IMG/VR virus record: IMGVR_UViG_3300043177_000122 | Span: 128,001-192,000 of that record | Length of the DNA: 64,000 nt | Origin: a virus | Taxonomy: Duplodnaviria > Caudoviricetes | Strand: one strand, 5' to 3' | Shown: in pieces, positions 870 through 63,465 of the stretch | How the letters are laid out: each line of letters opens with the position of its first letter | Numbering within the stretch: the first letter of the stretch is position 1 | Program-made: the position numbers and the translations under genes | The notes under the pieces: generated by a model | The model's database searches: none | The model's input: the letters and a program-made list of their open reading frames with translations, nothing else | What the model was told of the DNA's origin: nothing

Positions 870-1175
870 TTAGTACGTCTTATGTTGGTCTTGGATAAAT
901 TGCCCGTTATTTAAGTCTTCGCCTTTAGTGGCAGCAGAAACTACTTCTGCTATTTTTTTATCAACTTCTAGAATCATAGCTTGTCTTTGAACATTTAAAT
1001 CCATTGATTTTTTGAATGCATTGAAAAGTTTTAGCATTCCTTCTTCTGATCCATAAGCTGCCTTAAATTCCTCGAAGGTCATTTTACGAACAATATAAAG
1101 CTCTTCTTGGGCCAAAAACATTTTTTGATTGACAGTTGCTAATTTATCTATTAGAGATCCGATTGTATCAGCCAT
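870..1175 (-). CDS. hypothetical protein in glycan operon
   Basis: 101 aa ORF tightly packed in operon. Confidence 0.7.
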   Translation of the reverse strand: MADTIGSLIDKLATVNQKMFLAQEELYIVRKMTFEEFKAAYGSEEGMLKLFNAFKKSMDLNVQRQAMILEVDKKIAEVVSAATKGEDLNNGQFIQDQHKTY

Positions 1176-1181
1176 ATTACC

Positions 1182-1868
1182 TCACACTGTTATGCCGCCG
1201 TCAACTACTATAGATTGGCCTGTAACAAATTTAGAAGCATCAGATAAAAGAAATTCAATCACAGAATTTACATCATCAACAGTTGCTAAACGACCAAGTG
1301 GTGTTCTTCTAGTGATTTGTTCTTTCTGTCTAGCATCTAGCGATTTAGACATATCCGTTTCCATATACCCCGGCAAAACAGAATTAATTCTAAATCCCTT
1401 AGGACCCAGTTCCCTAGCTAAACTTCTTGTCATTCCATCTAATCCGCTTTTAGTAGCAGCATAAGTGGCTAAGCCTGCATAGCCTCTGACTGCTATAATA
1501 GATGAAACGTTGACAATAGTTCCTGGTTTTCGAGCTTTTAATCTTTCTCTAATGTATCTTTTAGTTAAAATAAGGGTAGAAATCAAATTAACTTGAACTA
1601 ATTCCGTAATAGATTCTTCTCCTTGCGTAGCTAATAGACCATCAAATGCAATAGCGGCATTATTAACTAAACAGTCTGCATTTTTAAAGAATGAATCTAA
1701 CAGACCAAATGTACTAGGATCTTTGAAATTTACTCCGCTAATATGTGTAAATAATTTACTATCAGATTCTGAACGAGCACATCCTATAATAGAGTGTCCC
1801 TGTTTGGCTAAATATTCTGCCGTAGATTTACCAAGTCCTCGACTTGTACCAGTTATAATAATATTCAT
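1182..1868 (-). CDS. SDR family oxidoreductase, FabG-like (3-oxoacyl-ACP reductase-like)
   Basis: TGTSRGLG, NNAA, YAATK, RINSVLPG, VTGQSIVVDGG motifs. Confidence 0.9.
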   Translation of the reverse strand: MNIIITGTSRGLGKSTAEYLAKQGHSIIGCARSESDSKLFTHISGVNFKDPSTFGLLDSFFKNADCLVNNAAIAFDGLLATQGEESITELVQVNLISTLILTKRYIRERLKARKPGTIVNVSSIIAVRGYAGLATYAATKSGLDGMTRSLARELGPKGFRINSVLPGYMETDMSKSLDARQKEQITRRTPLGRLATVDDVNSVIEFLLSDASKFVTGQSIVVDGGITV

Positions 1869-2857
1869 CTTTTAATCTTATTAGCTGATGTCAGCTCTAT
1901 TGTAGTTACCTGTGTTATTTGAAGAGGCACAGCATATTTAGGCAGTTTTTGAGTTAGCAATAATTTCAGACTTCTAGGGTCAATATCTCCTACATATTCT
2001 AGCCCGACTATTTGCCCTAGTAGTTGATTTGCGATAGGAAATGCACGACATTGCTTGATCTGAGGAATGCTATTAACAGTATTTTCAACTTCAGTTTGCG
2101 TAGTTTTAGCGCCGCCCACATTGATAACCTCAGTATCACGACCTATGAAATAAGCTCGACCATTTTCATATTTCCACATATCACCATTTTCTAAACGTGG
2201 CATTTTATCTTCCGGGAAGCCCTCTAAACCGTCACTACAAGAACAAAGATCACCAGATTCGGTTGTTGCATAAATGTGAGTTATTCGTGCATTAGGAAAT
2301 AATGTTTTAGCATCGTCTAATATTTTTTGTGTGGCGTATTCTCCACCAAATGTAATCTGTTTAAGAGGAGCTTTTTGAAATCTATCTGAATCAGCAATCA
2401 TCATTTTTCTAAATAATGATGGTGTCAAACTAATATGTGTAACCTGATCAATACAGTTAAGCATATTATTAATTGATAGGTCTTCCGGAATAACTAGTTT
2501 GGCATTTGTCTTCATACAATGAATTATTACCGATAGACCTGCCCACCTAGCCGGATTATAAGTTAATAACCATATATCTTGTTCACTACCTTTACCTTTT
2601 TTGTTTTGGTAAATTTGTTCAAAGTCTTTCCAAATTAATTTAGGAATTCCGGTTGTACCAGAAGTACGCAAAGCTATGCTTCCACCAGAAGGAAGAGATT
2701 CTACAAAATGGGCTTCTTTACATTCAACAATCCAATCAAATCCAGGAGCTGGCTCTGTTGATAAAGCAATATTATTGTTAATATTCAATAATGATATTAA
2801 CTTTTGTACCTCTGCAATAAACTTGCCTTCTTTACCAATCCAACATTTATAGTTCAT
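1865..2857 (-). CDS. AMP-binding (acyl-CoA/acyl-ACP ligase-like) adenylation enzyme
   Basis: TSGTTGIPK P-loop, YATTE, GD, GR..INVGG.K motifs. Confidence 0.85.
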   Translation of the reverse strand: MNYKCWIGKEGKFIAEVQKLISLLNINNNIALSTEPAPGFDWIVECKEAHFVESLPSGGSIALRTSGTTGIPKLIWKDFEQIYQNKKGKGSEQDIWLLTYNPARWAGLSVIIHCMKTNAKLVIPEDLSINNMLNCIDQVTHISLTPSLFRKMMIADSDRFQKAPLKQITFGGEYATQKILDDAKTLFPNARITHIYATTESGDLCSCSDGLEGFPEDKMPRLENGDMWKYENGRAYFIGRDTEVINVGGAKTTQTEVENTVNSIPQIKQCRAFPIANQLLGQIVGLEYVGDIDPRSLKLLLTQKLPKYAVPLQITQVTTIELTSANKIKR

Positions 2858-3111
2858 AATTTTTGACTCTTATATAATAATTCAGCAAGCTGTGAAACAG
2901 TACGAACGTTCCTCCAGTCAATGCCATCTTCATTAACCTTACTACTAACAAATGTTTCACCAGCTAACATAATAGAAGCAAAATCTAGACTATCAATACC
3001 TAAATCTAGAATGACACTATCCCCACTGATTTCATTTCTGTTTATCTTTCCAAGAGAGACATCCTCAATTACTAATCTCAAATAGTTAATAATATCACTT
3101 AGCGATTTCAT
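2854..3111 (-). CDS. acyl carrier protein
   Basis: 85 aa acidic protein with LGIDSLD phosphopantetheine-attachment motif. Confidence 0.85.
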   Translation of the reverse strand: MKSLSDIINYLRLVIEDVSLGKINRNEISGDSVILDLGIDSLDFASIMLAGETFVSSKVNEDGIDWRNVRTVSQLAELLYKSQKL

Positions 3112-3661
3112 AAAATTCTTTCTCCAATGCTAATAATCGTTCCTTATTTCTTTTACCAATTAGACGCATTGGGTTGCCAGCGACTACGGTAAATTCTGGA
3201 ACTGTTTTGTTGACAAAACTTAGCGCCCCAACAGAGCAGCCGGTTTCGAGCGTAAGGTTAGGCATGATAACCGAACCACATCCGATTATAACGTGTTTCT
3301 GTAGTAAAACGGGGCCTCCCATAACTTTTTTGAATCTATCAGGAATAGTTGGATTAGTCATCCAACCTTCAGAATAGTCATCAGTAGTTGTAAAAATGTT
3401 AACTCGTGAAGAAATTCCAACAAAATCTTCTATAGTAATTGGTGCACCACCTGCGCCCAATTGTGTGTAAAGAGAGATATGTATATTATTACCTATACGA
3501 ATAGTATTTTGAGCAGAGAAAAAACAAAATGCATCAATGCGAACATTATCTCCAATGTGAACATTTTGTGGATTTAGAATGCGAACTGAAGAATCAATGC
3601 GTACATTTTTACCGCAACTTCCTAATTTAGCTAAATCTTCTTCTGTATGAAAATCAGACAT
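3095..3661 (-). CDS. left-handed beta-helix sugar N-acyltransferase (AntD/QdtC/VioB-like)
   Basis: Hexapeptide repeats; NP..I.IGDNVRID.FC, DDYS...NPTIP, VIIG.GSVI, VAGNP. Start moved to ATG 3661. Confidence 0.85.
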   Translation of the reverse strand: MSDFHTEEDLAKLGSCGKNVRIDSSVRILNPQNVHIGDNVRIDAFCFFSAQNTIRIGNNIHISLYTQLGAGGAPITIEDFVGISSRVNIFTTTDDYSEGWMTNPTIPDRFKKVMGGPVLLQKHVIIGCGSVIMPNLTLETGCSVGALSFVNKTVPEFTVVAGNPMRLIGKRNKERLLALEKEFYEIAK

Positions 3662-4574
3662 GCAAACTCTCCTCAATCAAATTTTCCACAGCATGATGTG
3701 CTGTTACAGTACTTACAGTGATTTTGGACGTATAATGAATAGTGTCTCTAAACTTATCTCCTAACCAAAAGGTATTCTCTTTTGCTGGTATCATATTAGA
3801 GAAGCAAACATGTTTTTTGGGCTTTCCGAATAAATTATCTTGAATAAAAGAGAATGTATAAGCGCCCGATGCCCTACCAACTATAACATCACAATACGTA
3901 CTAACAAATCCATTTTCATTTAAATCGAAACCATTTTTACCGATGATAGCCGATGAATATATAATGTTAGAATGTTGTGATTGGTTAAACTGACTTTCAT
4001 GATTGGTAAGTATAAATAGTTTATCTTGGTGCTTTGAAGCTAGGCTAATTACAATTGGTAATAGTGGGAAATTATCTGCCTGCCCCGAGAGTGCATTACC
4101 ATTTGCAATTAATACTTTCATTCCGGGTCTTTTTTCCAAAAAATCTTTTGCAGATCCAATATGATACTTAGTGAAATCTATTTGAGGAAACCACTTGGTA
4201 GGATCTGACTCAATTTCTGATAATGTGAAATTAAAATAGTTCTTGCAAATTTCATCAAACATAACATACAAGCAATCAAATGTGATTCCATATGTGTTCA
4301 TATAATAGAAGCGGCGCTGAGCATACCAAGTATTAATGAACATAGTATCTCCCCTTACAAACACTCCTTCATGTTCATGCCAGTTAAGCGGAATTACATT
4401 ATATCCTAAGTCAGGTATGTCGGCAATACAGTTAGAATTATTCTTATGAGAGTATGAAATATTTACATCTGGAAATCTATGTTTAAAAGCAAGAGATAGT
4501 TTTCTAACAAACTCTCTAGATACATGTATGTCTCCATTGTGAAAATGGTTATAGAAAACTATATTTTTATACAT
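3654..4574 (-). CDS. putative glycosyltransferase-like protein
   Basis: 306 aa; N-terminal HFHNGD motif and late VIVGRASG motif resemble GT-B enzymes; operon context. Confidence 0.45.
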   Translation of the reverse strand: MYKNIVFYNHFHNGDIHVSREFVRKLSLAFKHRFPDVNISYSHKNNSNCIADIPDLGYNVIPLNWHEHEGVFVRGDTMFINTWYAQRRFYYMNTYGITFDCLYVMFDEICKNYFNFTLSEIESDPTKWFPQIDFTKYHIGSAKDFLEKRPGMKVLIANGNALSGQADNFPLLPIVISLASKHQDKLFILTNHESQFNQSQHSNIIYSSAIIGKNGFDLNENGFVSTYCDVIVGRASGAYTFSFIQDNLFGKPKKHVCFSNMIPAKENTFWLGDKFRDTIHYTSKITVSTVTAHHAVENLIEESLHV

Positions 4575-5137
4575 TATAAACTCGAAGCAGGAATAGTGAG
4601 ATAAGGCTCTGGCACAACATCAGCCATCGTATAGTTACGAACACCAGAATTATGAACATGATAAGTTCTAATGGATTTACTTGGGTTACTAACAGCATAG
4701 CCCGCTTTATGAAACTCATAGGCTATTCTATTGTCGCAACCTCTGGTGCCCAAAGTAAAATCACCAAACACACCTTCTACTTTACCTTTGAAAATCCAGG
4801 TATCTTGACTGTCGGGCCTATCAAAGAAACGCACAAAAGCATCATTGCCTAACCAATCCCAACGACTTAATGCGTATAGTTGTTTTGGTTTTATGTTTTC
4901 AACTAGCACAATAGTTTCATCAAAAAAAATATCTGAATTACAGATGATATTGATGTCATCTTCAGTAGACACTTTATTAATCTGATCAAAAAAGAATTGA
5001 TAAGTCGGCTTACTAGATGATTCGCAAATGATTGTAGTAATCAATTTGTTGTTCAAGTTTCTTTGTAAACACATATCAATTTCTCGTTTACGTAATGGAT
5101 GTTTGTCTTCGTAGTAATTATAGAATAATCTTATCAT
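4574..5137 (-). CDS. putative GT-A-like protein
   Basis: NSDIFFD (DxD-like), DSQDTWIF, GCDNRIAY; operon context. Confidence 0.45.
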   Translation of the reverse strand: MIRLFYNYYEDKHPLRKREIDMCLQRNLNNKLITTIICESSSKPTYQFFFDQINKVSTEDDINIICNSDIFFDETIVLVENIKPKQLYALSRWDWLGNDAFVRFFDRPDSQDTWIFKGKVEGVFGDFTLGTRGCDNRIAYEFHKAGYAVSNPSKSIRTYHVHNSGVRNYTMADVVPEPYLTIPASSL

Positions 5138-5138
5138 C

Positions 5139-7885: not shown

Positions 7886-7918
7886 GCTTGTCCAATCCTA
7901 ATCATTATTAGATTTTAT

Positions 7919-8665
7919 TCACAGTGAAGGGTCATTGAACGGAATAAAACACGGTTTCACCCTGCTCATATAGGCGTAACAATTTTTTTGAAATTTAGTC
8001 AAATTTTCTTGGTGTTGTTTAGTTTTAAATTCACGATACTCTCCCACATCTAAATCCCCTTCACCAAAATGAGAGCCTTTGCCAGGAAGGTATCCAATTT
8101 CCCAACCAGCCATTCTAGCTCGGAAATACCAATCAGCGTCTTCTTCGCCATATAAACCATAATCTAATGTGAAGAATCCAATCTTTTTATGCAAATCACG
8201 ATGAAAAACTGAGCAGGCTGTACCTAAATTACCATCAGATTTCTTTTGGAATGATTTGCCATTTCTAGTAACTAGTGGATATTCGGTTCCTTCAAAGTTA
8301 ATTCCAATTGCTAATCTAGGATTGTCTTTGATTAAATCAATACATTGACGTAACCAATCATAATGAACGTCAATATCATTATCTATAGTACATAGATACT
8401 CTGCTTCTGGTACCAATTTATCTGCTAATTGAAGGCCTTGATTTCTTCCCACTGCAATTCCTCTGTTTTCTTTGTTAAAATGTAGTGTAATCTTTGCAGT
8501 ATTTTCTTTAACCATTTCTGTTAGCCATTCTTGAGTTCCATCAGTAGATCCATTATCTACAATTATTAAATGATAAGTACCAATTGTATTTGGAAAGAAA
8601 CTATTAAGCATTCTTTTGGTTAAATCGAGGCGGTTATAAGTAACCATCATAATAGCAGTTGTCAT
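7919..8665 (-). CDS. glycosyltransferase family 2
   Basis: VTYNR, IVDNGSTDGT, DND (DxD), YGEEDADW motifs. Confidence 0.9.
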   Translation of the reverse strand: MTTAIMMVTYNRLDLTKRMLNSFFPNTIGTYHLIIVDNGSTDGTQEWLTEMVKENTAKITLHFNKENRGIAVGRNQGLQLADKLVPEAEYLCTIDNDIDVHYDWLRQCIDLIKDNPRLAIGINFEGTEYPLVTRNGKSFQKKSDGNLGTACSVFHRDLHKKIGFFTLDYGLYGEEDADWYFRARMAGWEIGYLPGKGSHFGEGDLDVGEYREFKTKQHQENLTKFQKNCYAYMSRVKPCFIPFNDPSL

Positions 8666-8672
8666 GGTATCT

Positions 8673-13227: not shown

Positions 13228-13578
13228 GGGGATGACATAGATTCGACGTGGTTTCGAATTATCGAAATGATGCAAACAGAGGATGATTGCCCCTCCAAAA
13301 GTAATCAACGTATAAATGCAAACGATAATGCATTTGCAATGGCCGCCTGAGGGCACCATTCGTTCCTAGATAAGACTGCTTGAGTAATCAATGGAACGCC
13401 AACCCACAAAGCTGGTTGATGAATATGGCTACGATGTTCAACAACAAGATTAACAGTAGATAGCTAGCCGGAGCGAATTCTTGCAGCGTTGTTGATAACG
13501 CCAATATCAACTAAGTTTGTGAATGAGTTTTGATAAGGGCATATCGCGGACTCGGCTGCAATGCCGACATCTCCACCA
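13228..13578 (+). ncRNA. ssrA: tmRNA (SsrA), tag peptide ANDNAFAMAA*
   Basis: 5' GGGGATG...ATTCGAC, 3' CATCTCC-ACCA with G3:U70; tag frame GCA AAC GAT AAT GCA TTT GCA ATG GCC GCC TGA at 13318-13350. Confidence 0.93.
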
Positions 13579-14663: not shown

Positions 14664-15260
14664 ATGAGCTATCTATAGAACCATCTAATTAAGCAAATGA
14701 AAGAGTGTCCACAAACGGATACTCAATCTGTGTATGAACACGGTGTCTCTGTAAAAGAGCACATTTTTGAATTGATTTCATTTTTAAAAACAGGACAAGT
14801 GCCTGAAGGTTGGAGATTACCTGACTGGATGCATATGTATCGAGAGCAGATTCTAGCCTCGCTTCTTCTAGAGGATATCATCAAAGCCTACGCAGTCTTC
14901 CATGATTGTGGTAAACCTTATTGTCTAATAATAGATGATAAGGGCAGAAGACATTTTCCTGACCATCCAGAGATATCACACAACGTTTGGCTTGCTGTTA
15001 GCAATAACAAAACGATTGCTAAGTTAATTCTTATGGATATGAAAATTCATACTATGAAGGCAGCAGATGTTGAAGAATTCTGTCAGCATCAAGAAGCTAT
15101 CACTCTCCTCATTGCAGGATTAGCTGAAGTACATAGTAATGCAAAGATGTTTGGCGGCATTGATTCTGAATCCTTCAAAATCAAATGGAGTCAAATTAAC
15201 AAACGTGGCAAAGCAATTTGTCGTAAACTATTTGGAGAACATCATGTGTCTATAGGTTAA
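14664..15260 (+). CDS. HD-domain phosphohydrolase with in-frame TAG at codon 5
   Basis: ATG AGC TAT CTA TAG AAC CAT CTA ATT AAG CAA ATG... is in frame with track ORF 14697; EHG, FHDCGKP and later H residues typical of HD fold. Confidence 0.7.
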
Positions 15261-15594
15261 AGAAGGCGATAAGCTTTATGTTATTACTCGTGCAGATTTG
15301 GAACCGGGTTATCAAGCAGTGCAGAGTATGCATGCATTGAGACAATTTACGGCAGAGCATCCTGAGGTCGATAAGGCATGGTTTGAGCAATCAAACTATC
15401 TTGGACTTCTTTCGGTGCAGAATGAACAAGAACTCCTGCAGTTGTTAGAACAAGCAAACAACCAAGGGATTCAAGCTTCAGCTTTCCGAGAACCCGATAT
15501 TGATAATCAAATGACAGCCATTGCGTTATCACCTGGCCCTAAGTCTAAAAAGCTTTGTAGCCGTTTACCACTAGCATTAAGAGGTAAGCCATGA
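15244..15594 (+). CDS. Pth2-like (peptidyl-tRNA hydrolase II fold) protein with in-frame TAG at codon 4
   Basis: GGAG RBS then ATG TGT CTA TAG GTT AAA GAA GGC GAT AAG CTT TAT...; KLYVITRADL.PGYQAVQSMHA and FREPDIDNQMTAIA motifs. Confidence 0.75.
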
Positions 15595-15842
15595 GCAAAT
15601 GGATTGATAAAGAGCGTGGGCCCGAATGTTTCTGTGGCATGCCAACTGGAGTATATATTAGTGAAGATGGTAAGGCATGGTTAATGTGTATCTTTCATGA
15701 ATATGAAGCGGGAGCAATGTTCCCGCTCCCTAGAGATGGAAGACCTGATGCCTGGCCTGATATTCCTCGTGAAGAGATAAATGAGCTAATGAAACGAGGA
15801 GCAGAAGAAGATGAACAAGAACCTATTTCAGAAGATGGATAA
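15591..15842 (+). CDS. hypothetical protein (CxC...CxxH)
   Basis: 83 aa ORF, GAGG RBS, overlaps preceding stop. Confidence 0.6.
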   Translation: MSKWIDKERGPECFCGMPTGVYISEDGKAWLMCIFHEYEAGAMFPLPRDGRPDAWPDIPREEINELMKRGAEEDEQEPISEDG

Positions 15843-15996
15843 AAAAGAATACGATTACTGCTCATGTTCGGGCCATTGCTGTGACAAACCAGAGCGATTT
15901 TGCCCTGTTCACGTTTGCGAAGCAGAAAATTTCTGTGAAGAATGCTTTGTTTCAGAATGTGCTAATTGCCACAAATCATGTGCGTGTGACCTATGA
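15811..15996 (+). CDS. small Cys-rich protein
   Basis: 12 Cys in the last ~45 residues. Confidence 0.55.
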   Translation: MNKNLFQKMDKKEYDYCSCSGHCCDKPERFCPVHVCEAENFCEECFVSECANCHKSCACDL

Positions 15997-16346
15997 AAAA
16001 GACTAGTATAGCATCTTTGCAAGAACGTTTAACTGATTGGTTGCCATGGGATGAAGCTATGTATCAGGTTGGAGCTACTCTTGGTTTCTGGCCTGAGTTT
16101 GGCGCACCTCATGATAACGATCCGTGGCATGGCGTTAAAGACGTTATGCACACTAGAAAACATGAACCGCTAGGTGCTATACTGGAATGGTTTCTCAAAG
16201 ATTTGGTTGAAGTGGGTTGTCTTGAATCAAAAACAGTCGAACTTGAATTCGAATTTTCAAGTGGGAAAAAGACCACGATTCCAATCGCGCATTATCGTTG
16301 GAATGTAAAATATAAAGGACCGGCAGATTTAATATCAATGTTATAA
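15993..16346 (+). CDS. hypothetical protein
   Basis: 117 aa ORF, ATGA overlap. Confidence 0.6.
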   Translation: MKKTSIASLQERLTDWLPWDEAMYQVGATLGFWPEFGAPHDNDPWHGVKDVMHTRKHEPLGAILEWFLKDLVEVGCLESKTVELEFEFSSGKKTTIPIAHYRWNVKYKGPADLISML

Positions 16347-16352: not shown

Positions 16353-16426
16353 CCGCTCTTGGTATAGTGGCTGTGCCGTCGACTCTAAATCGACAGAGCC
16401 GTGTTCAAATCACGGAGAGCGGGCCA
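16353..16426 (+). tRNA. amber suppressor tRNA (CUA), copy 1
   Basis: CCGCTCT/AGAGCGG acceptor, G73, CCA; GTCGA-CTCTAAA-TCGAC (anticodon CTA 16385-87); CCGTG-TTCAAAT-CACGG. Confidence 0.88.
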
Positions 16427-16436: not shown

Positions 16437-16508
16437 GCGCCGTTAGCTCAGTGGTAGAGCGGGAGCCTCTAAAACTCACGGTCGAGGGTTCAAATCCCTC
16501 ACGGCGCA
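16437..16508 (+). tRNA. amber suppressor tRNA (CUA), copy 2
   Basis: GCGCCGT/ACGGCGC acceptor, A73, CCA not encoded; GCTC-AGTGGTA-GAGC; loop CTCTAAA (CTA 16469-71) on a 3-bp stem; GAGGG-TTCAAAT-CCCTC. Confidence 0.8.
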
Positions 16509-16537
16509 CAAACTACTATTATGATATATAATCTAGC

Positions 16538-17832: not shown

Positions 17833-18222
17833 ATGCCTTCTAATACAGACGAATCTAAAAGATATTGGCTTTTAGAGGATCCTCGTAAAACCGGACTTAA
17901 GAATGGGTTACGACAATTAACAATTGAACAGTTACAAAGAGTTATCGATTATCAAGGTGAAATGGTTCTGGACAGCTATAATTATGAGGGTGGAAAATTT
18001 TGTCCTTTAACGATAGCGGTTGAACTAGATAAAACAATAATTAACCCAACACATGAAAAAGTTTTCGATGCCTTGACAAGTATGGGTTATAAAGTTTACA
18101 ATACTCGTGGGATTCCAGGCGAGTTTTACACAAATAATAGGCTGGAAGATTTGCTGGAAGCAGCAAAAGAAGTGTTACAGGAGAAAACAAATCAGAATGC
18201 AAACTGTAAATCAATCAAATAA
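17833..18222 (+). CDS. hypothetical protein
   Basis: ORF with GGTGG upstream of ATG 17833. Confidence 0.6.
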   Translation: MPSNTDESKRYWLLEDPRKTGLKNGLRQLTIEQLQRVIDYQGEMVLDSYNYEGGKFCPLTIAVELDKTIINPTHEKVFDALTSMGYKVYNTRGIPGEFYTNNRLEDLLEAAKEVLQEKTNQNANCKSIK

Positions 18223-18748
18223 TCAGCAGCGTGAATACCGTACTCGTATCAATAAATTCATTCGTGTTCCTCAAATTCGTGTAGTGCTTGCCGATGGTTC
18301 CAATGCCGGCATTATGAATACTTATGAGGCTTTGAAAATGGCACAAGACCAAGGACTTGATTTGGTGGAGATTAGTCCTAAGGCACAACCACCAGTCTGT
18401 AAAATTATGGACTATGGTAAATTTAAGTACGAAGAGAAGAAAAAGCTTCAAGCTGCTAAAAAGAATCAACAGATTCAAGAACTTAAGGAGCTAACTTTTC
18501 GACCCAACACTGATGAGAATGACCTAAAACATAAGCTTTCTCAAGCTAAAGAGTTCTTAGCTGATGGTGACAGGGTTAAATTTGCAGTACGTTTCCGTGG
18601 TCGTGAAATTGTCCATCAGGATATTGGTAAAGAGAAGTTAACTTGGATTCTTCAGGAATTGAATGGTTTAGTATCTCCTAATCCGCAAATTTCTTTAGAA
18701 GGAAAAATTATGTGGATGATTGTTTCTCCTACTAAACAAAAGTCATAA
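18197..18748 (+). CDS. infC: translation initiation factor IF-3
   Basis: RIN..IRVPQIRVV, DLVEISPKAQPPVCKIMDYGKFKYE, FL.DGDRVK..VRFRGRE. Confidence 0.95.
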   Translation: MQTVNQSNNQQREYRTRINKFIRVPQIRVVLADGSNAGIMNTYEALKMAQDQGLDLVEISPKAQPPVCKIMDYGKFKYEEKKKLQAAKKNQQIQELKELTFRPNTDENDLKHKLSQAKEFLADGDRVKFAVRFRGREIVHQDIGKEKLTWILQELNGLVSPNPQISLEGKIMWMIVSPTKQKS

Positions 18749-18758
18749 TAGTAGGAAT

Positions 18759-48930: not shown

Positions 48931-49965
48931 ATGGCAGTTATTAGCGTTACAGTTACACAATCGTCAGAACAAGTAGTAGCAGGAATACCAAAAACAGTTT
49001 CCATTACTACTAACATCACATCCACTATTTTCTATACTTTGGATGGAACAGATCCAACCTTATTCTCTACTATTTATACTGGGCCTATTTTTTTACCATT
49101 TGACCAATTATTGGTTACGCTTAAAATATTAGCTACTAATGGTGTTGATTCATCTCCAATTGTGGTTGAGCAATATATGACCAACATAGTAGATGGTAAT
49201 GCACGTTTAGGGCATGCTGGAACTACCGCTCAAGCAGGGAGTGTAGTTCCGAATGCTTACCCATTTGGTACACCTCCATTTCAACCTCAACAAGGTTATG
49301 TTAATCCTGCCGAGGCTGGGCCATATGGTGGAGCTGTCTATAATCCAGAGCTACCAGCCACTCCTACAGGTTTTGATGGACAAGGTAACCCAACAGGGTA
49401 TACCAATCAGCCGTACAATATTACAAATTATCAGATAACATATACTAATAGAGATGCTTTGGGCAATCAAGGAAGCAACATCGGTAACTTACCAGGTAAA
49501 ACCATTTTACCCTATCCAAGTGATGTTCAACCAGACAAAGGGCAAACTTCAGGACAAGGTCCAGAAGAGACTAATCAATTTACATCATTATTTGATCCAC
49601 GAGCAATGGTTATTTTTCAGGATTTCAGTACCGAAGATCCAAGTGATCCTCCACAAATTAATAGACAGTTTTTCTCACTAGAAAATGCTGAGAGAGCAAG
49701 AGATGGAACTTTCTATTTTAATACAGGATTAGATGCTTCGGCTCCAGTTAGTGGTTCTTTTGTAAGAGCACATTACAATCCACGCACTAATACAATGACT
49801 CATTACTATAGAGATTCTTGGTCTAATAAATGGATTATTTCAACTGCACCTTATCAACCAACTGGAACATTTGATGGTAATATGGCTCAAATGGCAATGG
49901 GAACTAAGAGTGGCGCGGGAGTTATTTTTGAATGGTTGCCCTTCGCAAGACGTGTTCTATTCTAA
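48931..49965 (+). CDS. protein with N-terminal chitobiase/FN3-associated domain, Pro/Gly/Thr-rich (possible virion protein)
   Basis: IFYTLDGTDPT..S..YTGPI. Confidence 0.7.
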   Translation: MAVISVTVTQSSEQVVAGIPKTVSITTNITSTIFYTLDGTDPTLFSTIYTGPIFLPFDQLLVTLKILATNGVDSSPIVVEQYMTNIVDGNARLGHAGTTAQAGSVVPNAYPFGTPPFQPQQGYVNPAEAGPYGGAVYNPELPATPTGFDGQGNPTGYTNQPYNITNYQITYTNRDALGNQGSNIGNLPGKTILPYPSDVQPDKGQTSGQGPEETNQFTSLFDPRAMVIFQDFSTEDPSDPPQINRQFFSLENAERARDGTFYFNTGLDASAPVSGSFVRAHYNPRTNTMTHYYRDSWSNKWIISTAPYQPTGTFDGNMAQMAMGTKSGAGVIFEWLPFARRVLF

Positions 49966-50005: not shown

Positions 50006-50791
50006 ATGACAGAAGATTTACGTTTGTCGGCGAGTAAAACCAAGACTTTCTTGGATTGTAAAGCCAAGTACAAGTTTTGTTATATTGAAAAACTGCCACG
50101 CAAAGACTGGGACTTTCATATTTTTGGCAAATTCTGCCATAGTGTTTTAGAGTTTTTTCACAAGCAGTATATTGAAGGTTGTTTGTTACCATACAATGTT
50201 ACAATGAATGATGCCTTTAAACATGCACTGGAAGAGTTTAAAGATAAGATGACTCCTGAAATGAAGAAGGAGTGTTTTCAAATTATTGACCAGTATTTGC
50301 GTTTAATTACCAAAGATAAACAAGGTGGCATGCCAGCCAACGTAATTGCGGTTGAAAAAAGATTTGACTTTGCCATCGCTGAAAATCTTGTATTAAACGG
50401 AGCAATTGACAGGATTCAATTGGATGTTGATAATGTAATCCACGTGGCGGACTACAAAACCACGAAAAACAAAAAATATCTCAAAAACGACTTCTTTCAG
50501 CTTTTAACATATGCTTATGTTATAGTGTCTGAAGACCCGAGTATAGAGAAAGTGCGAGCGTCTTATATTTTACTCAGACATAATTTTGAATATGTGACAG
50601 TTGAGTTTAATAAGGAAGAAATTTTAGCGGTAAAAGATAAGTACGAAGAGTATGCAAAGCAAATGCTTTCTGAGAAAGAGTTTAGACCAAATCCTACGAT
50701 TCTCTGTCGTTTCTGTGATTATTCTGATGTATGTGTAGAAGGAAAGAAAATGTTAGAACCTTCGAAAATATATGGAGAAGTTGCGTGGTAA
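50006..50791 (+). CDS. PD-(D/E)XK nuclease (RecB/AddB/Cas4-like)
   Basis: LSASK.KTFLDC...Y, G...H..LE, GAIDRI, ADYKT, QL..Y, CRFCDY..VC. Confidence 0.9.
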   Translation: MTEDLRLSASKTKTFLDCKAKYKFCYIEKLPRKDWDFHIFGKFCHSVLEFFHKQYIEGCLLPYNVTMNDAFKHALEEFKDKMTPEMKKECFQIIDQYLRLITKDKQGGMPANVIAVEKRFDFAIAENLVLNGAIDRIQLDVDNVIHVADYKTTKNKKYLKNDFFQLLTYAYVIVSEDPSIEKVRASYILLRHNFEYVTVEFNKEEILAVKDKYEEYAKQMLSEKEFRPNPTILCRFCDYSDVCVEGKKMLEPSKIYGEVAW

Positions 50792-57172: not shown

Positions 57173-57274
57173 TATATACGATGTTGGTTGATAACAAAAT
57201 TGGCCGTATCGTCGAAAAATGATAAAGATGATATCATTTGTATATAAAATCTATGCATAGTAAGGAATGTAGTT

Positions 57275-58213: not shown

Positions 58214-58215
58214 TA

Positions 58216-59233
58216 ATGCAATTGTCAAGTCGTCTTACAAAATTATTTCAATCACAAACTGATAAGATATTTAAATATCTTTTTTCAGAGAATCCTGATG
58301 TTATTAAGTCTTATGTCAATGGTGGTTTATCTGCTATTAGCATGATATTAGCACCAGTTAATGTATTTATGAGGCATCTACTAACGGTTCAAGGTTTAGA
58401 CCCTGATGCGGTTCCTGGGGAAGCTCAGAGAGAATTGCTTCAAACTGCTTTTAATAGTATATTTGAAGCCACTCATGAAAAAGATTATGATGACGATTAT
58501 GATGTTTCGTGGGCTCGTAATAGATATAAGTCTGTGAAAGAAAAGCTAGATATTACTGAAGATAATTATAAGTCTCTGACAGATTTATCTAGGTTTAATG
58601 ATGACCCACCAGTTTTGACTAAAGAAAAATTTGATGATTTAGTGCAAAAGGTTAATCCAGTAGCATTAGAGTCGGAAAAACGCGAATTACCATTAGTAAC
58701 AACTTATTTCCAAGATGAAATTCAAGCTCTTAAAAGTTTTGTTGATTCTATGGAAGAAAGCAAAGCTAAGAAAAATAATCTTAAACCATCCTCTAAAAAG
58801 GTAAATAAAGGTAAGAGATCGGGAGGTATAATTCGTAGAATAACTTCTAATGAGACGCCAAAAGAAGAACCATCAACTTTGGAGGTTAAATCTGATCGTA
58901 AAGTTCGTCCATCTTCTAAGAGACCCCCCAGGTCGTAATTTAAGTGAATTAGCTGCGGAAAAGAAAGTTAAGGTAAAAGAAGCTATCCCAGAATTTCACG
59001 CAGAAATGAAAAGAAAACTAACTAAAGCTACAGAACTAACCAACCTAATGATTGCAAATGGTCTTTGTCAACCGGATAATAAATCTCGTAGAGACCAAAT
59101 TAAGTCAATGATAAATTGGACTGATAACAATTTTGAAGCTCTAGAAAGAGTTATCAAAAAAAAATACGCTCCCACGAAAGATGCAGTAGTTGAGAATAAA
59201 TTTAAAGGCTCTTTTAGAAGAGTTCGGAAATAA
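58216..59233 (+). pseudogene. probable single gene split at a C6 run (track ORFs 58216-58938 and 58850-59233)
   Basis: Removing one C at 58924-58929 gives ...SSKRPPGRNLSELAAEKK... Confidence 0.5.
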
Positions 59234-59240
59234 GGTATAA

Positions 59241-59702
59241 ATGCCAATTAGACGTGTTCAACAACAATCAGATAGTGGAAGTATCCAAAACCTACAAAAT
59301 AGGAACGAGGAAGAACTTCCTCCAACCGATTATGAGCTTCGAGTGAAAGAGCTTTATGAACATGCATTGGTAACTAGAAATCAAGCCCTAGTTGACTCCC
59401 TGAGTTTGATTCCACTTAATGGGGCTGCCAATGATCCGGTTTCTATTTTTTTTAGACACAGAGAATATGTTAAATCACTTAGCGCCTCGCTAGCTGAAAA
59501 AATTCGGCAGGCAGCTAAAGAAATTGCAAGCTGCTTACATGTGGATGAATCTTCTTTACCACAAGAAATAAAATGGTCTAGATATAAGCAATCTCATTAT
59601 CTTACAGCTATTACTGAAGATATTGATATAGTTAAAGTAGCAAGTGCTGATGGCCAAACTTATACGAGGACAAAAAGAAGTTTTAGAAGGGTAATCGAAT
59701 GA
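59241..59702 (+). CDS. hypothetical protein
   Basis: 153 aa; ends RSFRRVIE. Confidence 0.65.
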   Translation: MPIRRVQQQSDSGSIQNLQNRNEEELPPTDYELRVKELYEHALVTRNQALVDSLSLIPLNGAANDPVSIFFRHREYVKSLSASLAEKIRQAAKEIASCLHVDESSLPQEIKWSRYKQSHYLTAITEDIDIVKVASADGQTYTRTKRSFRRVIE

Positions 59703-60511
59703 AGTGCGTATCCTGTGAAATAGAAATTAATCCAAAATGGAAATATGCTATTGATATGAATGTGTGTCCCTTTTGTGGCAAACATATTATGGAAGAGCAT
59801 CTTAAGAACTGTCTAACTACTTTGGCTGCTGCTATGGAAGCGATGCTTAAGTACCCTGAACAGTTAGATGATTGGCTGCTATCTAATCATAACTATATTA
59901 AAACAGACTCTCCCGATCTAAAACAATATCTTCCAAAAGAAGCTTTCGAAGAAATACGCAAAGAACTTGATGAAGCAGAATTTCAAGAGAAGAAAAAGTC
60001 TGTTGTTAAGATTAAGGTTCCGACAGAAGATGGTGATGTTATTGAACAAGAAGTTGTTGTTGAAAAGATGGCAACCGATGATAGAACTCAAACTTTCCAC
60101 GATCGCGCAAACAATATGTTGAAGCAAGAGAAAGCTGTGAATGGTGACCCTAAAAGTGTCGCCGCAAAAACTAGGGATCTTAAAGCAATGGCAGAAAAAA
60201 TCAAGCGAGAAGCTGCAATTCAAGCGAAAGCCGAAGGTGGTATGGCACCTATGATGAGCAAGGAAATGATCGCTTCTGGTGATATAGTGTCTTCGAGCTT
60301 GCCACCAGCTTCCGATGGTGATGACGATGAAATTTCAGATGTTGTTTTAGCAATGAATAATATGAAAAAATTTGGAGGGGTTGGTGGTGCGAACGAAAAA
60401 GATTTGCATGCCCTAGCTAAGATGCAGGCAAAAGCTCAAGGCGCTTTCAAACGATTGGGTTCTGGTCAAGGAAGTTTTTCAAGAGTAAACCATGGCAATC
60501 AGAGTCGTTGA
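59699..60511 (+). CDS. hypothetical protein with N-terminal Zn ribbon
   Basis: CVSC...CPFC. Confidence 0.7.
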   Translation: MKCVSCEIEINPKWKYAIDMNVCPFCGKHIMEEHLKNCLTTLAAAMEAMLKYPEQLDDWLLSNHNYIKTDSPDLKQYLPKEAFEEIRKELDEAEFQEKKKSVVKIKVPTEDGDVIEQEVVVEKMATDDRTQTFHDRANNMLKQEKAVNGDPKSVAAKTRDLKAMAEKIKREAAIQAKAEGGMAPMMSKEMIASGDIVSSSLPPASDGDDDEISDVVLAMNNMKKFGGVGGANEKDLHALAKMQAKAQGAFKRLGSGQGSFSRVNHGNQSR

Positions 60512-60779
60512 CAATAAGAAACTGGAAATGACAGATGATGAATGGGATATGTACCAAAAGATTTGTAAGTCTTATACAGATGTAACTGGTAAAGGCGAAG
60601 ATCTTTTTATGGATTTGTTTGAGACTAATGATGAAGGTATTATTATTTTTTTAAAACCTCCCGCTAAGAGAAGAACTAGTTTAGAAGTATTCTTATTTTT
60701 GATGTCATTAATGCAACACCAACATTTACGTTTAATGTATCAACAGATTGATGACGCCATTAAAGAAATCAAGAAGTAA
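60492..60779 (+). CDS. hypothetical protein
   Basis: 95 aa ORF. Confidence 0.65.
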   Translation: MAIRVVDNKKLEMTDDEWDMYQKICKSYTDVTGKGEDLFMDLFETNDEGIIIFLKPPAKRRTSLEVFLFLMSLMQHQHLRLMYQQIDDAIKEIKK

Positions 60780-60780
60780 A

Positions 60781-61035
60781 ATGGGACATTATTCCGAAAA
60801 GATAAGCAATAAAGATAAGCAATTTGTCAAAGATTTCATAATGGATAAAATATCTCATAAAATAGATGAGGCTTTAGCTAATTTAGAAAGTGCTTATGAT
60901 TACAACCATTTTTGTAATGAAATATGGATTGATAGTTTTCATGGTAGTTTTAAGCTACATTTTACGCCGGCCAATGAGATGAATGATGGGCAGAATTATT
61001 ATTTATCATTTGATTATTTTGGTCGTGGCAAATAA
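60781..61035 (+). CDS. hypothetical protein
   Basis: ATG 60781 preferred. Confidence 0.55.
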   Translation: MGHYSEKISNKDKQFVKDFIMDKISHKIDEALANLESAYDYNHFCNEIWIDSFHGSFKLHFTPANEMNDGQNYYLSFDYFGRGK

Positions 61036-61088
61036 TTATTTGTCGAGAAAAAGTTCGGTTAATTCAATTATATAGGGGAAAGACAAAC

Positions 61089-61595
61089 ATGAGCCAACAA
61101 GTAAGACTCGGCGATGTTTTAGGTGCTAACCTTGAGGAAGACTTTAAGAATTTTGACCTTACGGAAATACAAAGTGTATTGGAACAATTAAGGGATGTAG
61201 ATGCTATTGATTTAGCACATGCAGAACTTTTACAACAAAAATCATTAAGAGGAGCAGATATTTTAGCAGATTATCTAGCTAAGATGGTAAAGACAGTAGC
61301 ATATCTAGAATCGAAAGTAAATAGTACAAAGAATAAAGTGTCCTTAGAATATGCGTCTCCTGATGGAGCGCGAACGACCGTGGACATGAAGAAATGGGCG
61401 GGAGAATCATCGCCCGAAGTCGAAGCAATACTAGTAAAATTAGCAGAAGCCAAAGGTGCTAAAATGGCCCTGGACCGAAAATACGAGATTTTGATCAAAG
61501 CTCACCACCATTTTAAAGACATTGCTGGCGGGCTCCGAAAGACGATCCTCGGTTATAGTTCAGGCACCGGCAACCCGCCAGGCGAGGGCTATTGA
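61089..61595 (+). CDS. UvsY-like recombination mediator (putative)
   Basis: Helical 168 aa protein directly before recA; ends in K...H..K pattern. Assignment rests largely on context. Confidence 0.45.
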   Translation: MSQQVRLGDVLGANLEEDFKNFDLTEIQSVLEQLRDVDAIDLAHAELLQQKSLRGADILADYLAKMVKTVAYLESKVNSTKNKVSLEYASPDGARTTVDMKKWAGESSPEVEAILVKLAEAKGAKMALDRKYEILIKAHHHFKDIAGGLRKTILGYSSGTGNPPGEGY

Positions 61596-61606
61596 TAGGA
61601 GAAAAA

Positions 61607-62803
61607 ATGTCAGATGATAAAAAAAAGAAAGCCGATAAGCTAACCGCATTTTTCCGAAGCTTTGCAGAAGCAGACGCTCAGTTAGATGTTAGACTCGCCC
61701 ATGAAACTATTGGAGAAAAACTTCCTGTTATTTCATCTGGCTCTATGGTTCTTGACGATGCTTTGTCATCCGGTGGTTTACCAAAAGGCAGATTGATTCA
61801 GTATTATGGCGCCCCCGGCAGTGGCAAAACCCTAATGGCAATGCTGGCTATGAAAGAAGCGCAACTACAAGACCCAACATCTCAACAGATGTTCATTGAT
61901 GCAGAAGGCACATTCGATGCTAAGTGGGCAGAGATTCTTGGACTAGATGTCACTAGAATTATTGTTGTAGATGGTGAAACGGCCGTTATTGGTCGTAGCT
62001 GTTTTGAGATGATTCTTGGGGTTCCTAAGGAAGATAAAAAGACTCATGAGCTAGTCGGCAAATCTAAGCAAGGACTACTCGATATGATTATGGCGGGAGA
62101 ATTCAATATCAACATGGTTGTGTTGGATTCACTCGGCGCCATTATTCCACCAGGCGAAGATGTTTCGGTTGTTGGAAAGATGAATATGGCTTTACTTGCC
62201 AGATTCTTAACTACTACTTTCCGTAAGCTTTCTCTTGATGCAAATAGGGCAATGGTGCCATTTATTTTCATCAACCATAAGAAAGCCAATATGGATCCTT
62301 ATGGTGTAGACCACTCGTTTTCTGGCGGAAATACTTACGCTCACTTCTTGAGTGCTAACGTTTACTTTGAAGCGGTAGCTCGTGCAGATGCGCAAATCTT
62401 GGATGAAAAAGAGCAAAAGGTCGGACATACGATGCGTGCAACCATTGAAAAATCGAAGTTTGGCCCTTACCCTCGTAAGTGTGAATTCAAAGTAAACTTC
62501 GGAGTCGGCGTTATAGATAAGCATGAAGAAATTGCACAGCTAGCTTTAGATTACAACGTGGTCGTTAAGACCTCCACAGTATCTCATGAATATGGTGATA
62601 AGAAGTGGGTTGGATTTCCAAAGTTCTGTGAAGCTCTTAAAGATGATCCAGCTCTTGCGACTGAACTAGCTTTGAAGATTAGCCAGGCGCGTGAGCAAAA
62701 GTGGGAAACAGCTCGTAAGGAACAAGAGGCCAAGAAAAATGGCGTTACTGCTGATGAAGCTGGTATAGAAACAGAAGCAAAGAAGGGCAAGAAAGGTAAG
62801 TAA
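61607..62803 (+). CDS. recA: RecA/UvsX recombinase
   Basis: SGS..LD.AL..GGLPKGR, YG.PGSGKT, FIDAE, VLDSL.A, GGN...H, K.K.G. Confidence 0.93.
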   Translation: MSDDKKKKADKLTAFFRSFAEADAQLDVRLAHETIGEKLPVISSGSMVLDDALSSGGLPKGRLIQYYGAPGSGKTLMAMLAMKEAQLQDPTSQQMFIDAEGTFDAKWAEILGLDVTRIIVVDGETAVIGRSCFEMILGVPKEDKKTHELVGKSKQGLLDMIMAGEFNINMVVLDSLGAIIPPGEDVSVVGKMNMALLARFLTTTFRKLSLDANRAMVPFIFINHKKANMDPYGVDHSFSGGNTYAHFLSANVYFEAVARADAQILDEKEQKVGHTMRATIEKSKFGPYPRKCEFKVNFGVGVIDKHEEIAQLALDYNVVVKTSTVSHEYGDKKWVGFPKFCEALKDDPALATELALKISQAREQKWETARKEQEAKKNGVTADEAGIETEAKKGKKGK

Positions 62804-62805
62804 TT

Positions 62806-63156
62806 ATGCCAATTGAGTTGGGTCCAAATAGTCTTTTAGGCGCTCAAGCTGCCTCCCTCAAGAAACCACCATTTTTAATTACATTAGAAGATGGTCTTTC
62901 TGGGAAGACTCGTAATTTTCAGAGATTTATTTCTTTGGATAAGCCTGAATCAATTAACGGTTTTGTCCAAGTCAAGGGAATTTTCTGTGATAAGGACGAA
63001 GAGGAAATAATCAAAACCTTTGCGGACATCTTGACAAATACTTCCAAAGAATTAATTTTGGAGATGATGTTTCCGCTACATAGAATTCATAGCATTAGAA
63101 GCTTAGTATTCAATGCTGTAAAGACTGTGACAGTTCCTAATAAAGAACAGAAGTAA
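62806..63156 (+). CDS. hypothetical protein
   Basis: 116 aa ORF. Confidence 0.65.
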   Translation: MPIELGPNSLLGAQAASLKKPPFLITLEDGLSGKTRNFQRFISLDKPESINGFVQVKGIFCDKDEEEIIKTFADILTNTSKELILEMMFPLHRIHSIRSLVFNAVKTVTVPNKEQK

Positions 63157-63174
63157 GATATTACGAATAGGAAA

Positions 63175-63465
63175 GTGAGTAATACAATGGTTAACGCGAA
63201 TGAAACAAATGAGGTGATTTTTCGTGGGGTCACCTCAGTAATAGAACAATCTGGAGGCATTTGGAAAGGAACGATGACAAATTTGACTACTGCTTTGAAC
63301 CGTGTTCTTAGTCAACGTCAGAGGACTCTTCTTCCTGGTTCACCAGGCGCCCTCAGAGTGGTGATTAACAGAATAGCTAATAGGCTACGTAATAGAGGTA
63401 TTGGAGTAAGATTTGGCCGTACCACTGACCACACCCGCACTCGCTACGTACGATTTACACACTAA
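63175..63465 (+). CDS. small basic protein, winged-helix-like
   Basis: W.GT...L...L....P.SP..L...I.R....LR..GI.V.F.R pattern; GTG start. Confidence 0.5.
   Translation: MSNTMVNANETNEVIFRGVTSVIEQSGGIWKGTMTNLTTALNRVLSQRQRTLLPGSPGALRVVINRIANRLRNRGIGVRFGRTTDHTRTRYVRFTH

What the first reader, a model, noticed from the sequence alone, without database searches (positions are those of the whole stretch)
870..63465. TAG is unused as a stop and almost unused as sense: possible codon-reassignment intermediate
Seen: the roughly 100 plausible gene ends I read by eye are all TAA or TGA. TAG appears only as a second stop (after 18748 and 61595) and at the two N-terminal sites. Long genes (dnaE, sbcC, topA) have no in-frame TAG. 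TAG is often the rarest stop in AT-rich genomes, so a formal test is needed. Inference: TAG has been vacated, as codon-capture models predict, and is used only as a switch.
Basis: partly seen in the sequence, partly recalled or inferred. Interest (0 to 1): 0.7.

Follow-up and report, generated by a model that had tools for sequence, protein, structure and literature searches.

The report
Rare TAG stops, amber-gated phage genes
This 359-kb freshwater phage still uses the standard genetic code: it rarely ends genes in TAG, carries its own TAG-reading tRNAs, and keeps one in-frame TAG at the start of each of two tRNA-related genes, a conserved arrangement in huge phages that looks like a translational switch rather than a code change in progress.

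Summary
All about 104 credible gene ends are TAA or TGA, and the only in-frame TAGs sit at codon 5 of an HD-like gene and codon 4 of a Pth2-like gene, next to two tRNA(CUA) genes.

It does not hold for the whole genome:
- TAG ends 2-4% of confident genes, including RNase HII, two phosphoesterases, a kinase-like protein and two homing endonucleases.
- Coding density is the same under code 11 and with TAG read as sense, so TAG is neither vacated nor reassigned.
- TAG is about 3-fold rarer than in four suppressor-less control phages pooled, but not significantly rarer than in T4 alone.
- TAG stops are evolutionarily unstable.

The depletion tracks a sub-clade whose complete genomes encode release factor 2 (TAG 1-3.6%, TGA 25-37%). 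Two unrelated huge phages with the same Pth2/tRNA(CUA) pair use TAG at 7% and 17%.

The "switch" idea is well supported. Of 68 distinct viral contigs with a Pth2-like gene, 50 have a TAG just before the first β-strand with no start codon after it, and 40 of those 50 have a tRNA(CUA) within 6 kb.

The state is old and stable, not transitional. Read-through itself has not been shown. Other notes of this scan had already flagged the gated genes and the rare TAG stops.

The parts
870..63465 (.). Stretch in which every credible gene end is TAA (60) or TGA (44); no credible TAG terminator
   Evidence: Greedy ORF set of the window; ORF list
14664..15260 (+). HD-like gene (fold resembles the C-terminal part of class II tRNA nucleotidyltransferases). 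Starts at ATG 14664, has an in-frame TAG at codon 5 (14676-14678), next ATG at 14697
   Evidence: TAG and the downstream N-x-L-I codons are conserved with synonymous changes in 12 relatives. AlphaFold2 model pLDDT 89.5 and matches to 3WFO-3WFS
15244..15594 (+). Pth2-like peptidyl-tRNA hydrolase gene. GGAG lies 6 nt before ATG 15244; in-frame TAG at codon 4 (15253-15255); first later start is TTG 15298, which would remove the first strand of the domain
   Evidence: PF01981 E = 3.9e-8, profile positions 2-104 begin 6 residues after the TAG. TAG conserved in 19/19 and then 50/68 viral contigs
16353..16426 (+). tRNA with anticodon CUA (amber suppressor type), body 'a': C1-G72, G73, encoded CCA
   Evidence: ARAGORN; Rfam tRNA 47.2 bits; relatives
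16437..16509 (+). tRNA with anticodon CUA, body 'b': G1-C72, A73, no encoded CCA
   Evidence: ARAGORN; Rfam tRNA 65.7 bits; relatives
13228..13578 (+). Phage-encoded tmRNA (ribosome rescue), in the same translation-related island
   Evidence: Rfam RF00023, 104.2 bits, E = 1.3e-40
18746..18754 (+). TAA TAG TAG at the end of the IF-3 gene (18107-18748): TAG only as back-up stop
   Evidence: IF3_N and IF3_C domains
61593..61598 (+). TGA TAG at the end of ORF 61089-61595: TAG only as back-up stop

Best explanation
The phage uses the standard code but carries tools for decoding UAG: two tRNA(CUA) genes here, plus a release factor 2 gene in its complete relatives.

UAG has two roles.
1. It is a conserved sensor codon at codon 3-5 of a Pth2-like peptidyl-tRNA hydrolase gene and, in this sub-clade, of the adjacent HD-like tRNA-end enzyme gene. 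Full-length protein is made only when UAG is read by the phage's suppressor tRNA instead of by host RF1.
2. It is a rare, leaky terminator elsewhere. Because the phage reads UAG through, and RF2 covers UAA and UGA, TAG ends are mildly harmful. They are replaced by TAA or TGA faster than they arise, most thoroughly in the replication and virion core that includes this window. They persist at a few percent in the accessory, tRNA-rich left third of the genome and in mobile endonuclease genes.

Shown: the codon counts, the conservation, the co-location, the equal coding density. Inferred: that read-through happens, that it is the cause of the depletion, and what the gate is for.
For: - Toolkit. 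Two tRNA(CUA) genes. Full-length RF2 with SPF and GGQ motifs in complete relatives G002, G003 and G004. The window's contig is 83% complete and covers G002 coordinates 21.8-388 kb, so it lacks the stretch where G002 has RF2 at 407 kb.
- No bulk recoding. Coding density is 0.917 under both codes here and nearly equal in five other genomes.
- Depletion. TAG ends 3.6% of ORFs >=150 aa here, 1.6%, 1.0% and 3.5% in the phage parts of G002, G004 and G003, against 6.7-16.3% in T4, phiKZ, phage G and KVP40. Pooled: 25/1028 vs 70/596, p = 6e-14.
- The TGA:TAG ratio is 92:9 here vs 106:70 in controls, p = 1.5e-8. AT-richness alone does not predict this, because TAA mutates to TAG and to TGA by equivalent transitions.
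- Instability. Between G000 and G002, TAA is kept in 146/177 orthologues, TGA in 78/109, TAG in 3/9.
- Gate. Among 22 genomes or contigs, mini-ORF-stop-ORF patterns are equally common for TAG, TAA and TGA (67/65/60), but the only recurrent families are Pth2-like (19/19 TAG) and HD-like (12/12 TAG).
- In a wider profile search, 50 of 68 distinct contigs have the gate. tRNA(CUA) lies within 6 kb in 40/50 gated vs 3/12 non-TAG loci (odds ratio 12, p = 6e-4).
- The codons between the TAG and the next ATG change synonymously: Leu CTA/TTA/TTG/CTC, Ile ATT/ATC/ATA. The PTH2 domain begins 6 residues after the TAG, and no start codon lies in between.
Against: - No protein or ribosome data show read-through, and no RNA runs hold the sequence.
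- T4, with no suppressor, has only 6.7% TAG ends. G000 alone does not differ significantly from it (p = 0.19; TGA:TAG p = 0.07).
- G005 (GC 31%) and G006 (GC 58%) carry the gated Pth2 and a tRNA(CUA) yet end 7.3% and 17.1% of long ORFs in TAG. A suppressor alone therefore does not purge TAG.
- TAG ends are not followed by closer back-up stops than TAA or TGA ends (p = 0.82).
- RF2 is not seen in the window's own (incomplete) contig.
- The link between RF2 and depletion rests on one sub-clade, which is effectively one evolutionary event.
- The ORF sets are my own crude calls, not a trained gene finder.
Confidence: 0.55

Rival explanations
1. The rarity of TAG stops is ordinary: the low tail of AT-rich phage stop usage, or a copy of the host's release-factor balance. 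It is unrelated to the suppressor tRNAs, which serve only the one or two gated genes.
For: T4 has 6.7% TAG without any suppressor, and G000 vs T4 is not significant. G005 and G006 have the cassette with 7% and 17% TAG. There is no back-up-stop signal. Borges et al. report TAG rarer than TGA in low-GC standard-code relatives of recoded phages.
Against: The pooled sub-clade is lower than T4 (p = 0.016) and than G005 (p = 8e-4), and its TGA:TAG ratio is higher than both (p = 0.005 and 2e-6). TAG stops turn over far faster than TAA or TGA stops. The core regions of G002 and G004 reach 1-1.6%.
Confidence: 0.25
2. This is a true intermediate on the way to code 15 (TAG = amino acid): TAG nearly emptied, suppressor acquired, and the first sense TAGs just appearing.
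For: It matches the route proposed by Borges et al.: depletion, then a suppressor tRNA, then in-frame stops. The toolkit (tRNA-CUA plus RF2) is that of code-15 jumbo phages.
Against: The same two-gene gate is conserved down to 38% protein identity and occurs in phages sharing about 20 of 461 ORFs with this one. None of six whole genomes shows a recoded block. The TAGs sit at codon 3-5 of translation-related genes, not scattered in late or lysis genes.
Confidence: 0.1
3. The N-terminal TAGs are real terminators of 2-7-codon leader ORFs that regulate the downstream gene by coupling, re-initiation or peptidyl-tRNA drop-off. The tRNA(CUA) genes act on host messages instead.
For: By count, mini-ORF-stop-ORF patterns are no commoner for TAG than for TAA or TGA in single genomes. 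For the HD-like gene an ATG lies 6 codons after the TAG. Very short ORFs are known to provoke drop-off, which is Pth's substrate (general knowledge of lambda bar minigenes).
Against: For Pth2 no canonical start lies between the TAG and the first strand of the domain, and the distance to the next start varies from 6 to 62 codons. Codons after the TAG evolve as coding sequence. The stop is always TAG, never TAA or TGA, and it co-occurs with tRNA(CUA).
Confidence: 0.1

Closest known systems
TAG-recoded (code 15) phages: Lak megaphages, crAss-like and other gut phages (Borges et al., bioRxiv 10.1101/2021.08.26.457843; Peters et al., PMC9523058; jumbo-phage survey PMC13037316)
   Same: Phage-encoded tRNA(CUA). 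RF2 that reads UAA and UGA but not UAG (seen in the complete relatives). TAG rare as a terminator. The idea that a stop codon gates expression.
   Different: Coding density is not improved by reading TAG as sense. In-frame TAG is confined to one or two genes, always at codon 3-5, and those genes are tRNA-end enzymes next to the suppressor genes, not late or lysis genes. Freshwater or soil huge phages, not gut phages.
Standard-code close relatives of recoded phages that have acquired a suppressor tRNA (Agate phage example in Borges et al.)
   Same: Standard code, depleted rare stop codon, suppressor tRNA present.
   Different: That state was seen in a phage >90% identical to recoded ones and was read as short-lived. 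Here it is shared by very divergent phages, and I found no recoded relative among six genomes.
Autoregulation of bacterial RF2 (prfB) through an early in-frame UGA (textbook knowledge, not checked in a paper here)
   Same: An early in-frame stop codon in a translation-related gene makes that gene's output depend on how the cell currently decodes that stop.
   Different: prfB escapes by a +1 frameshift and senses RF2. Here escape would be by a suppressor tRNA, and the codon would sense the suppressor-to-RF1 balance. The gated proteins are not release factors.
Codon capture (Osawa-Jukes) and ambiguous-intermediate (Schultz-Yarus) models of code change (general knowledge)
   Same: A stop codon that is rare and is read in two ways.
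   Different: Codon capture needs the codon to vanish first, and it has not. The data fit a stable ambiguous state better, with no sign of progress to reassignment.

Membership tests
Code 15 (TAG-recoded) phage | Many genes interrupted by in-frame TAG; coding density clearly higher with TAG as sense | tested here: not met
   Density 0.917 vs 0.917, 461 vs 460 ORFs. Same in G002-G006. Apparent TAG-spanning frames are antisense shadows or adjacent genes.
Code 15 (TAG-recoded) phage | Phage-encoded tRNA with anticodon CUA | tested here: met
   Two genes at 16353-16426 and 16437-16509.
Code 15 (TAG-recoded) phage | Phage-encoded RF2 | tested here: inconclusive
   None in the 83%-complete contig. 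Present with SPF/GGQ motifs in complete relatives G002, G003 and G004, at a place missing from this contig. Absent from complete G005.
Code 15 (TAG-recoded) phage | In-frame TAG concentrated in late, structural or lysis genes | tested here: not met
   The only conserved in-frame TAGs are in the Pth2-like and HD-like genes.
Proposed precursor state of recoding (Borges et al.) | Standard code, TAG depleted relative to TGA, suppressor tRNA acquired | tested here: met
   TGA:TAG is 92:9 vs 106:70 in controls; tRNA(CUA) present.
Proposed precursor state of recoding (Borges et al.) | Close relatives that are recoded | tested here: not met
   None among G002-G006. Only six genomes were read in full, so absence is not proven.
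Codon capture: vacated codon | The codon has disappeared from coding use before being reassigned | tested here: not met
   TAG ends RNase HII, two Metallophos proteins, an AAA_33 protein, and GIY-YIG and LAGLIDADG endonucleases.
PTH2 peptidyl-tRNA hydrolase (PF01981) | Match to the family profile above its curated cut-off, over the whole domain | tested here: met
   33.9 bits vs cut-off 23, profile positions 2-104 of 115. Below the NCBIfam equivalog cut-offs, so it is a divergent member.
Pyrrolysine system (ARAGORN labels any CUA tRNA 'Pyl') | PylS synthetase encoded | tested here: not met
   No match over the cut-off in G000 or G002-G005. The weak hits in G002 and G003 are to a lysyl-tRNA synthetase.

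The most novel reading that the evidence does not exclude
A compact 'amber gate' is a widespread, self-contained translational sensor in huge phages. It consists of a Pth2-like gene with UAG at codon 3-5 plus its own tRNA(CUA), and it reports whether UAG is being read or terminated. In the sub-clade that also carries RF2, it has pushed the genome towards RF1-independent termination. That would be a stable, long-lived ambiguous state of the genetic code rather than a step towards reassignment.
Probability: 0.4. Interest if true: 0.8.

Novelty: new variant of a known kind. Interest (0 to 1): 0.6.

Why it matters
Phage stop-codon recoding is usually described as all-or-partial reassignment that times late genes. 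Here the same toolkit (suppressor tRNA, RF2) sits in phages that keep the standard code and spend the rare codon on one or two conserved gates in tRNA-end enzymes.

If read-through is confirmed, three things follow:
- It is a natural minimal amber-suppression circuit.
- It shows that an 'ambiguous' stop codon can be held stable over long evolutionary times.
- It gives a concrete system for testing how carrying a suppressor shapes a genome's stop-codon usage.

There is also a practical point. Standard gene callers truncate these genes, so the gate is invisible in current annotations.

Tried and rejected
- Other TAG-gated genes in G000. Candidates at genome positions 154502, 204640 and 308026 failed. 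One has an ATG right after the TAG. One lies inside the end of the upstream gene in another frame. One is not conserved.
- Two-segment frames joined by TAG (15722-16294, 49078-49926 and others). No orthologue spans the TAG, and the RNase HII orthologues end in TAA.
- A recoded block in the high-GC segments of G002 and G004. Pfam domains do not span TAGs, and the cross-genome matches are antisense shadows full of stops.
- Back-up stops after TAG: no enrichment.
- Identity of the suppressor tRNAs. No close paralogue among the phage's 57 tRNAs (best 68-72% identity), and the bodies differ between relatives. The amino acid inserted is unresolved.
- Sequence families for the HD-like protein: no Pfam or NCBIfam match.
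- No close relatives in the cultured-phage collection; DnaE is at most 31% identical.
- RNA evidence: no RNA holder listed. The only full holders are two freshwater DNA runs that may be the source.
- Literature searches for an amber-gated Pth2 or suppressor-bearing standard-code huge phages found no description. That covers the held library only.
Full report
**What the window is.** The window is bases 128001-192000 of a single 358,993-base contig with 38% G+C and 57 tRNA genes. IMG/VR classes it as a linear virus record, about 83% complete. It is an uncultivated huge phage. Its DnaE is at most 31% identical to anything in the cultured-phage collection. The only runs that hold it fully are two freshwater metagenomes. 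Two adjacent tRNA genes with anticodon CUA lie at 16353-16426 and 16437-16509. Both pass the Rfam tRNA model, at 47 and 66 bits.

**The observation inside the window.**
- A greedy non-overlapping ORF set (>=40 aa) has 107 members: 60 end in TAA, 44 in TGA, 3 in TAG.
- The three TAG ORFs are 41-76 aa, lie on the minus strand within plus-strand gene blocks, and are not credible.
- In the 69 ORFs >=100 aa, TAG occurs 725 times out of frame and never in frame, so the trinucleotide itself is not rare.
- TAG follows the true stop of the IF-3 gene (TAA TAG TAG at 18746-18754) and of ORF 61089-61595 (TGA TAG).
- The 'two N-terminal sites' were located with the help of earlier notes of this scan. One is ATG 14664 ... 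TAG 14676-78 in an HD-like gene. The other is ATG 15244 ... TAG 15253-55 in a Pth2-like gene.

**The observation genome-wide.** Coding density is 0.917 under code 11 and 0.917 with TAG as sense, with 461 vs 460 ORFs. There is no bulk recoding. TAG does terminate genes:

| ORF set | TAG ends |
|---|---|
| Crude ORFs | 30/461 |
| Coding score >=5 | 11/337 (3.3%) |
| >=150 aa | 9/252 (3.6%) |

These are real genes. They include a GIY-YIG endonuclease, RNase HII, two calcineurin-like phosphoesterases, an AAA_33 kinase-like protein and a LAGLIDADG endonuclease. Most have orthologues in relatives. TAG ends are commoner in the left 128 kb (8/132), which holds tRNA arrays, small genes and mobile endonucleases, than in the remaining 231 kb (3/205; p = 0.027). 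Given the genome's own rate, a window with none is unremarkable (P about 0.09).

**Is TAG rarer than expected?** I applied the same ORF procedure to four suppressor-less phages of similar composition.

| Phage | TAG share of ORFs >=150 aa |
|---|---|
| T4 | 6.7% |
| phiKZ | 10.6% |
| Phage G (first 200 kb) | 16.3% |
| KVP40 | 13.0% |
| This phage (G000) | 3.6% |

G000 is lower than the pooled controls (p = 8.5e-5) but not lower than T4 alone (p = 0.19). The more specific signal is the asymmetry between the two non-TAA stops. TGA:TAG is 92:9 here against 106:70 in the controls (odds ratio 6.8, p = 1.5e-8). AT-richness does not predict this asymmetry. TAG ends are also unstable. Between G000 and its 76%-identical relative G002, TAA is retained in 146/177 orthologues, TGA in 78/109 and TAG in 3/9. 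TAG ends have no closer back-up stops than other ends.

**Relatives.** Searches of IMG/VR with the two gated proteins returned 28 loci. I read six related genomes largely or wholly. All are standard-code by coding density.
- G002, G003 and G004 are complete. Their DnaE is 73-89% identical to this phage's.
- Each encodes a full-length RF2 with SPF and GGQ motifs.
- G000 aligns to G002 coordinates 21.8-388 kb, so it lacks the stretch where G002 has RF2 at 407 kb.
- In this sub-clade TAG ends 1.0-3.6% and TGA 25-37% of long ORFs in the phage parts. Pooled, that is 25/1028. It is lower than T4 (p = 0.016), than all controls (p = 6e-14) and than G005 (p = 8e-4).
- G005 (GC 31%, no RF) and G006 (GC 58%, only a short RF-1-domain ORF) share about 20 of 461 ORFs with G000.
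- Both still carry a tRNA(CUA) and the gated Pth2, and they end 7.3% and 17.1% of long ORFs in TAG.

Depletion therefore goes with the RF2-bearing sub-clade, not with the suppressor alone. This correlation amounts to one evolutionary event and is weak evidence for cause.

**The two in-frame TAGs are conserved and specific.**
- In 13 of 16 HD-like loci and 12 of 12 Pth2-like loci, a TAG lies 2-5 codons after an ATG.
- In the HD-like gene, the codons between the TAG and the next ATG keep N-x-L-I while changing synonymously (Leu CTA/TTA/TTG/CTC; Ile ATT/ATC/ATA). Homologues without the TAG read the same residues from an upstream ATG.
- In the Pth2-like gene, a GGAG sits 5-8 nt before the upstream ATG in this phage and its closer relatives. 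The PF01981 domain starts 6 residues after the TAG. No ATG, GTG or TTG lies between.
- A blind scan of 22 genomes or contigs looked for 'ATG, 1-6 codons, stop, then >=90 open codons with the next start >=5 codons away'. It found equal numbers for TAG, TAA and TGA (67/65/60). The only families recurring across genomes were Pth2-like (19, all TAG) and HD-like (12, all TAG).
- A profile search found 203 Pth2-like stretches in viral contigs. Among the best 80 (68 distinct), 50 have the TAG with no start after it. A tRNA(CUA) lies within 6 kb in 40 of these 50 against 3 of 12 loci without the TAG (odds ratio 12, p = 6e-4).
- The residue after the TAG is Ile or Val in 45 of 56, so the next base is nearly always a purine. 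In E. coli that context favours amber suppression (general knowledge), but the residue is also conserved in ungated homologues.
- Other candidate gated genes in G000 did not survive inspection.

**What is gated.**
- The Pth2-like protein is a divergent PTH2 member.
- The HD-like protein has no Pfam or NCBIfam match. It folds confidently (pLDDT 89.5).
- By sequence profile (E = 0.045) and by fold (TM 0.5-0.57), it resembles the C-terminal part of a class II tRNA nucleotidyltransferase (PDB 3WFO-3WFS). There are weaker matches to HD phosphohydrolases.
- Both would act at tRNA 3' ends.
- They sit in an island with a Thg1-like gene, four tRNA-Thr genes, a tmRNA (104 bits), IF-3 and tRNA-Arg(CCU).

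**Reading.** TAG has not been vacated and is not being reassigned. The phage lineage keeps UAG in two roles: a rare, unstable terminator, and a conserved early gate on one or two tRNA-end enzymes beside the suppressor genes. The most economical mechanism is that full-length enzyme is made only when the phage's own suppressor outcompetes RF1. In the RF2-bearing sub-clade, read-through makes TAG ends slightly harmful, so they drift to TAA or TGA. Whether the gate is a feed-forward timer, or a negative feedback in which the enzymes act on the suppressor itself, cannot be told from sequence. Read-through is inferred, not shown.

**Comparison with what is known.** Borges et al. proposed the route depletion, then suppressor, then in-frame stops in late genes, and they show a standard-code phage with a newly gained suppressor. 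Jumbo-phage surveys report tRNA(CUA) plus RF2 in code-15 genomes. The present case has the same toolkit but differs in three ways. The state is shared by very divergent phages. The in-frame TAGs are confined to codon 3-5 of tRNA-related genes. No recoded relative was found. I found no description of an amber-gated Pth2 in the papers I could search.

Other notes of this scan had already flagged the gated genes, the tRNA pair and the rare-TAG pattern on overlapping windows.

Noticed in passing
L032:9632-11242 (G002, a part missing from this contig); also G003:C1:77156-77518: Complete relatives encode a full-length lysyl-tRNA synthetase (TIGR00499, 496 bits, above cut-off). tRNA(CUA) body 'b' has A73 and is 70% identical to the phage's tRNA-Lys(CUU). 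A Lys-charging partner for the suppressor is therefore a lead, untested.
   Followed up: partly
L053-L055 (G002 420-480 kb) and L168-L172 (G004 20-130 kb): Both complete relatives have a 60-110 kb segment of much higher G+C (0.49-0.59 vs 0.34-0.42) next to the RF2 gene. It has short ORFs and TAG at 10-17% of ends. IMG/VR calls these records 'provirus'. It could be host flank, chimera or a distinct genomic island. I found no sign of TAG recoding.
   Followed up: partly
window 13228-13578: Phage-encoded tmRNA (Rfam RF00023, 104 bits). ARAGORN did not report it.
   Followed up: partly
G002 50073-50149 (within L034): ARAGORN calls a tRNA with anticodon TTA (ochre-suppressor type) in relative G002. 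None is present in G000.
   Followed up: no
L145 (G010:C1:126116-126436) and L146 (G006:C1:157378-157698): Two cassette-bearing phages without full RF2 have a short RF-1-domain ORF (178-195 aa), possibly an ArfB-like ribosome-rescue factor.
   Followed up: no
L241, L247, L257, L258: In some phages the Pth2-like gene has a normal start and no TAG, yet a tRNA(CUA) still lies about 350 nt downstream. This hints at a functional tie between Pth2 and the suppressor beyond gating.
   Followed up: no
G000:C1:49093-49926 (L138:494-1327): RNase HII ends in TAG, and the next ORF (76 aa) follows in the same frame after three codons. Read-through would fuse them. Orthologues in G002 and G003 end in TAA, so this is probably incidental.
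   Followed up: partly
whole G000 contig: The 57 tRNAs cover every amino acid except Trp. G003 and G005 have a tRNA-Trp(CCA); G002 has none either.
   Followed up: no
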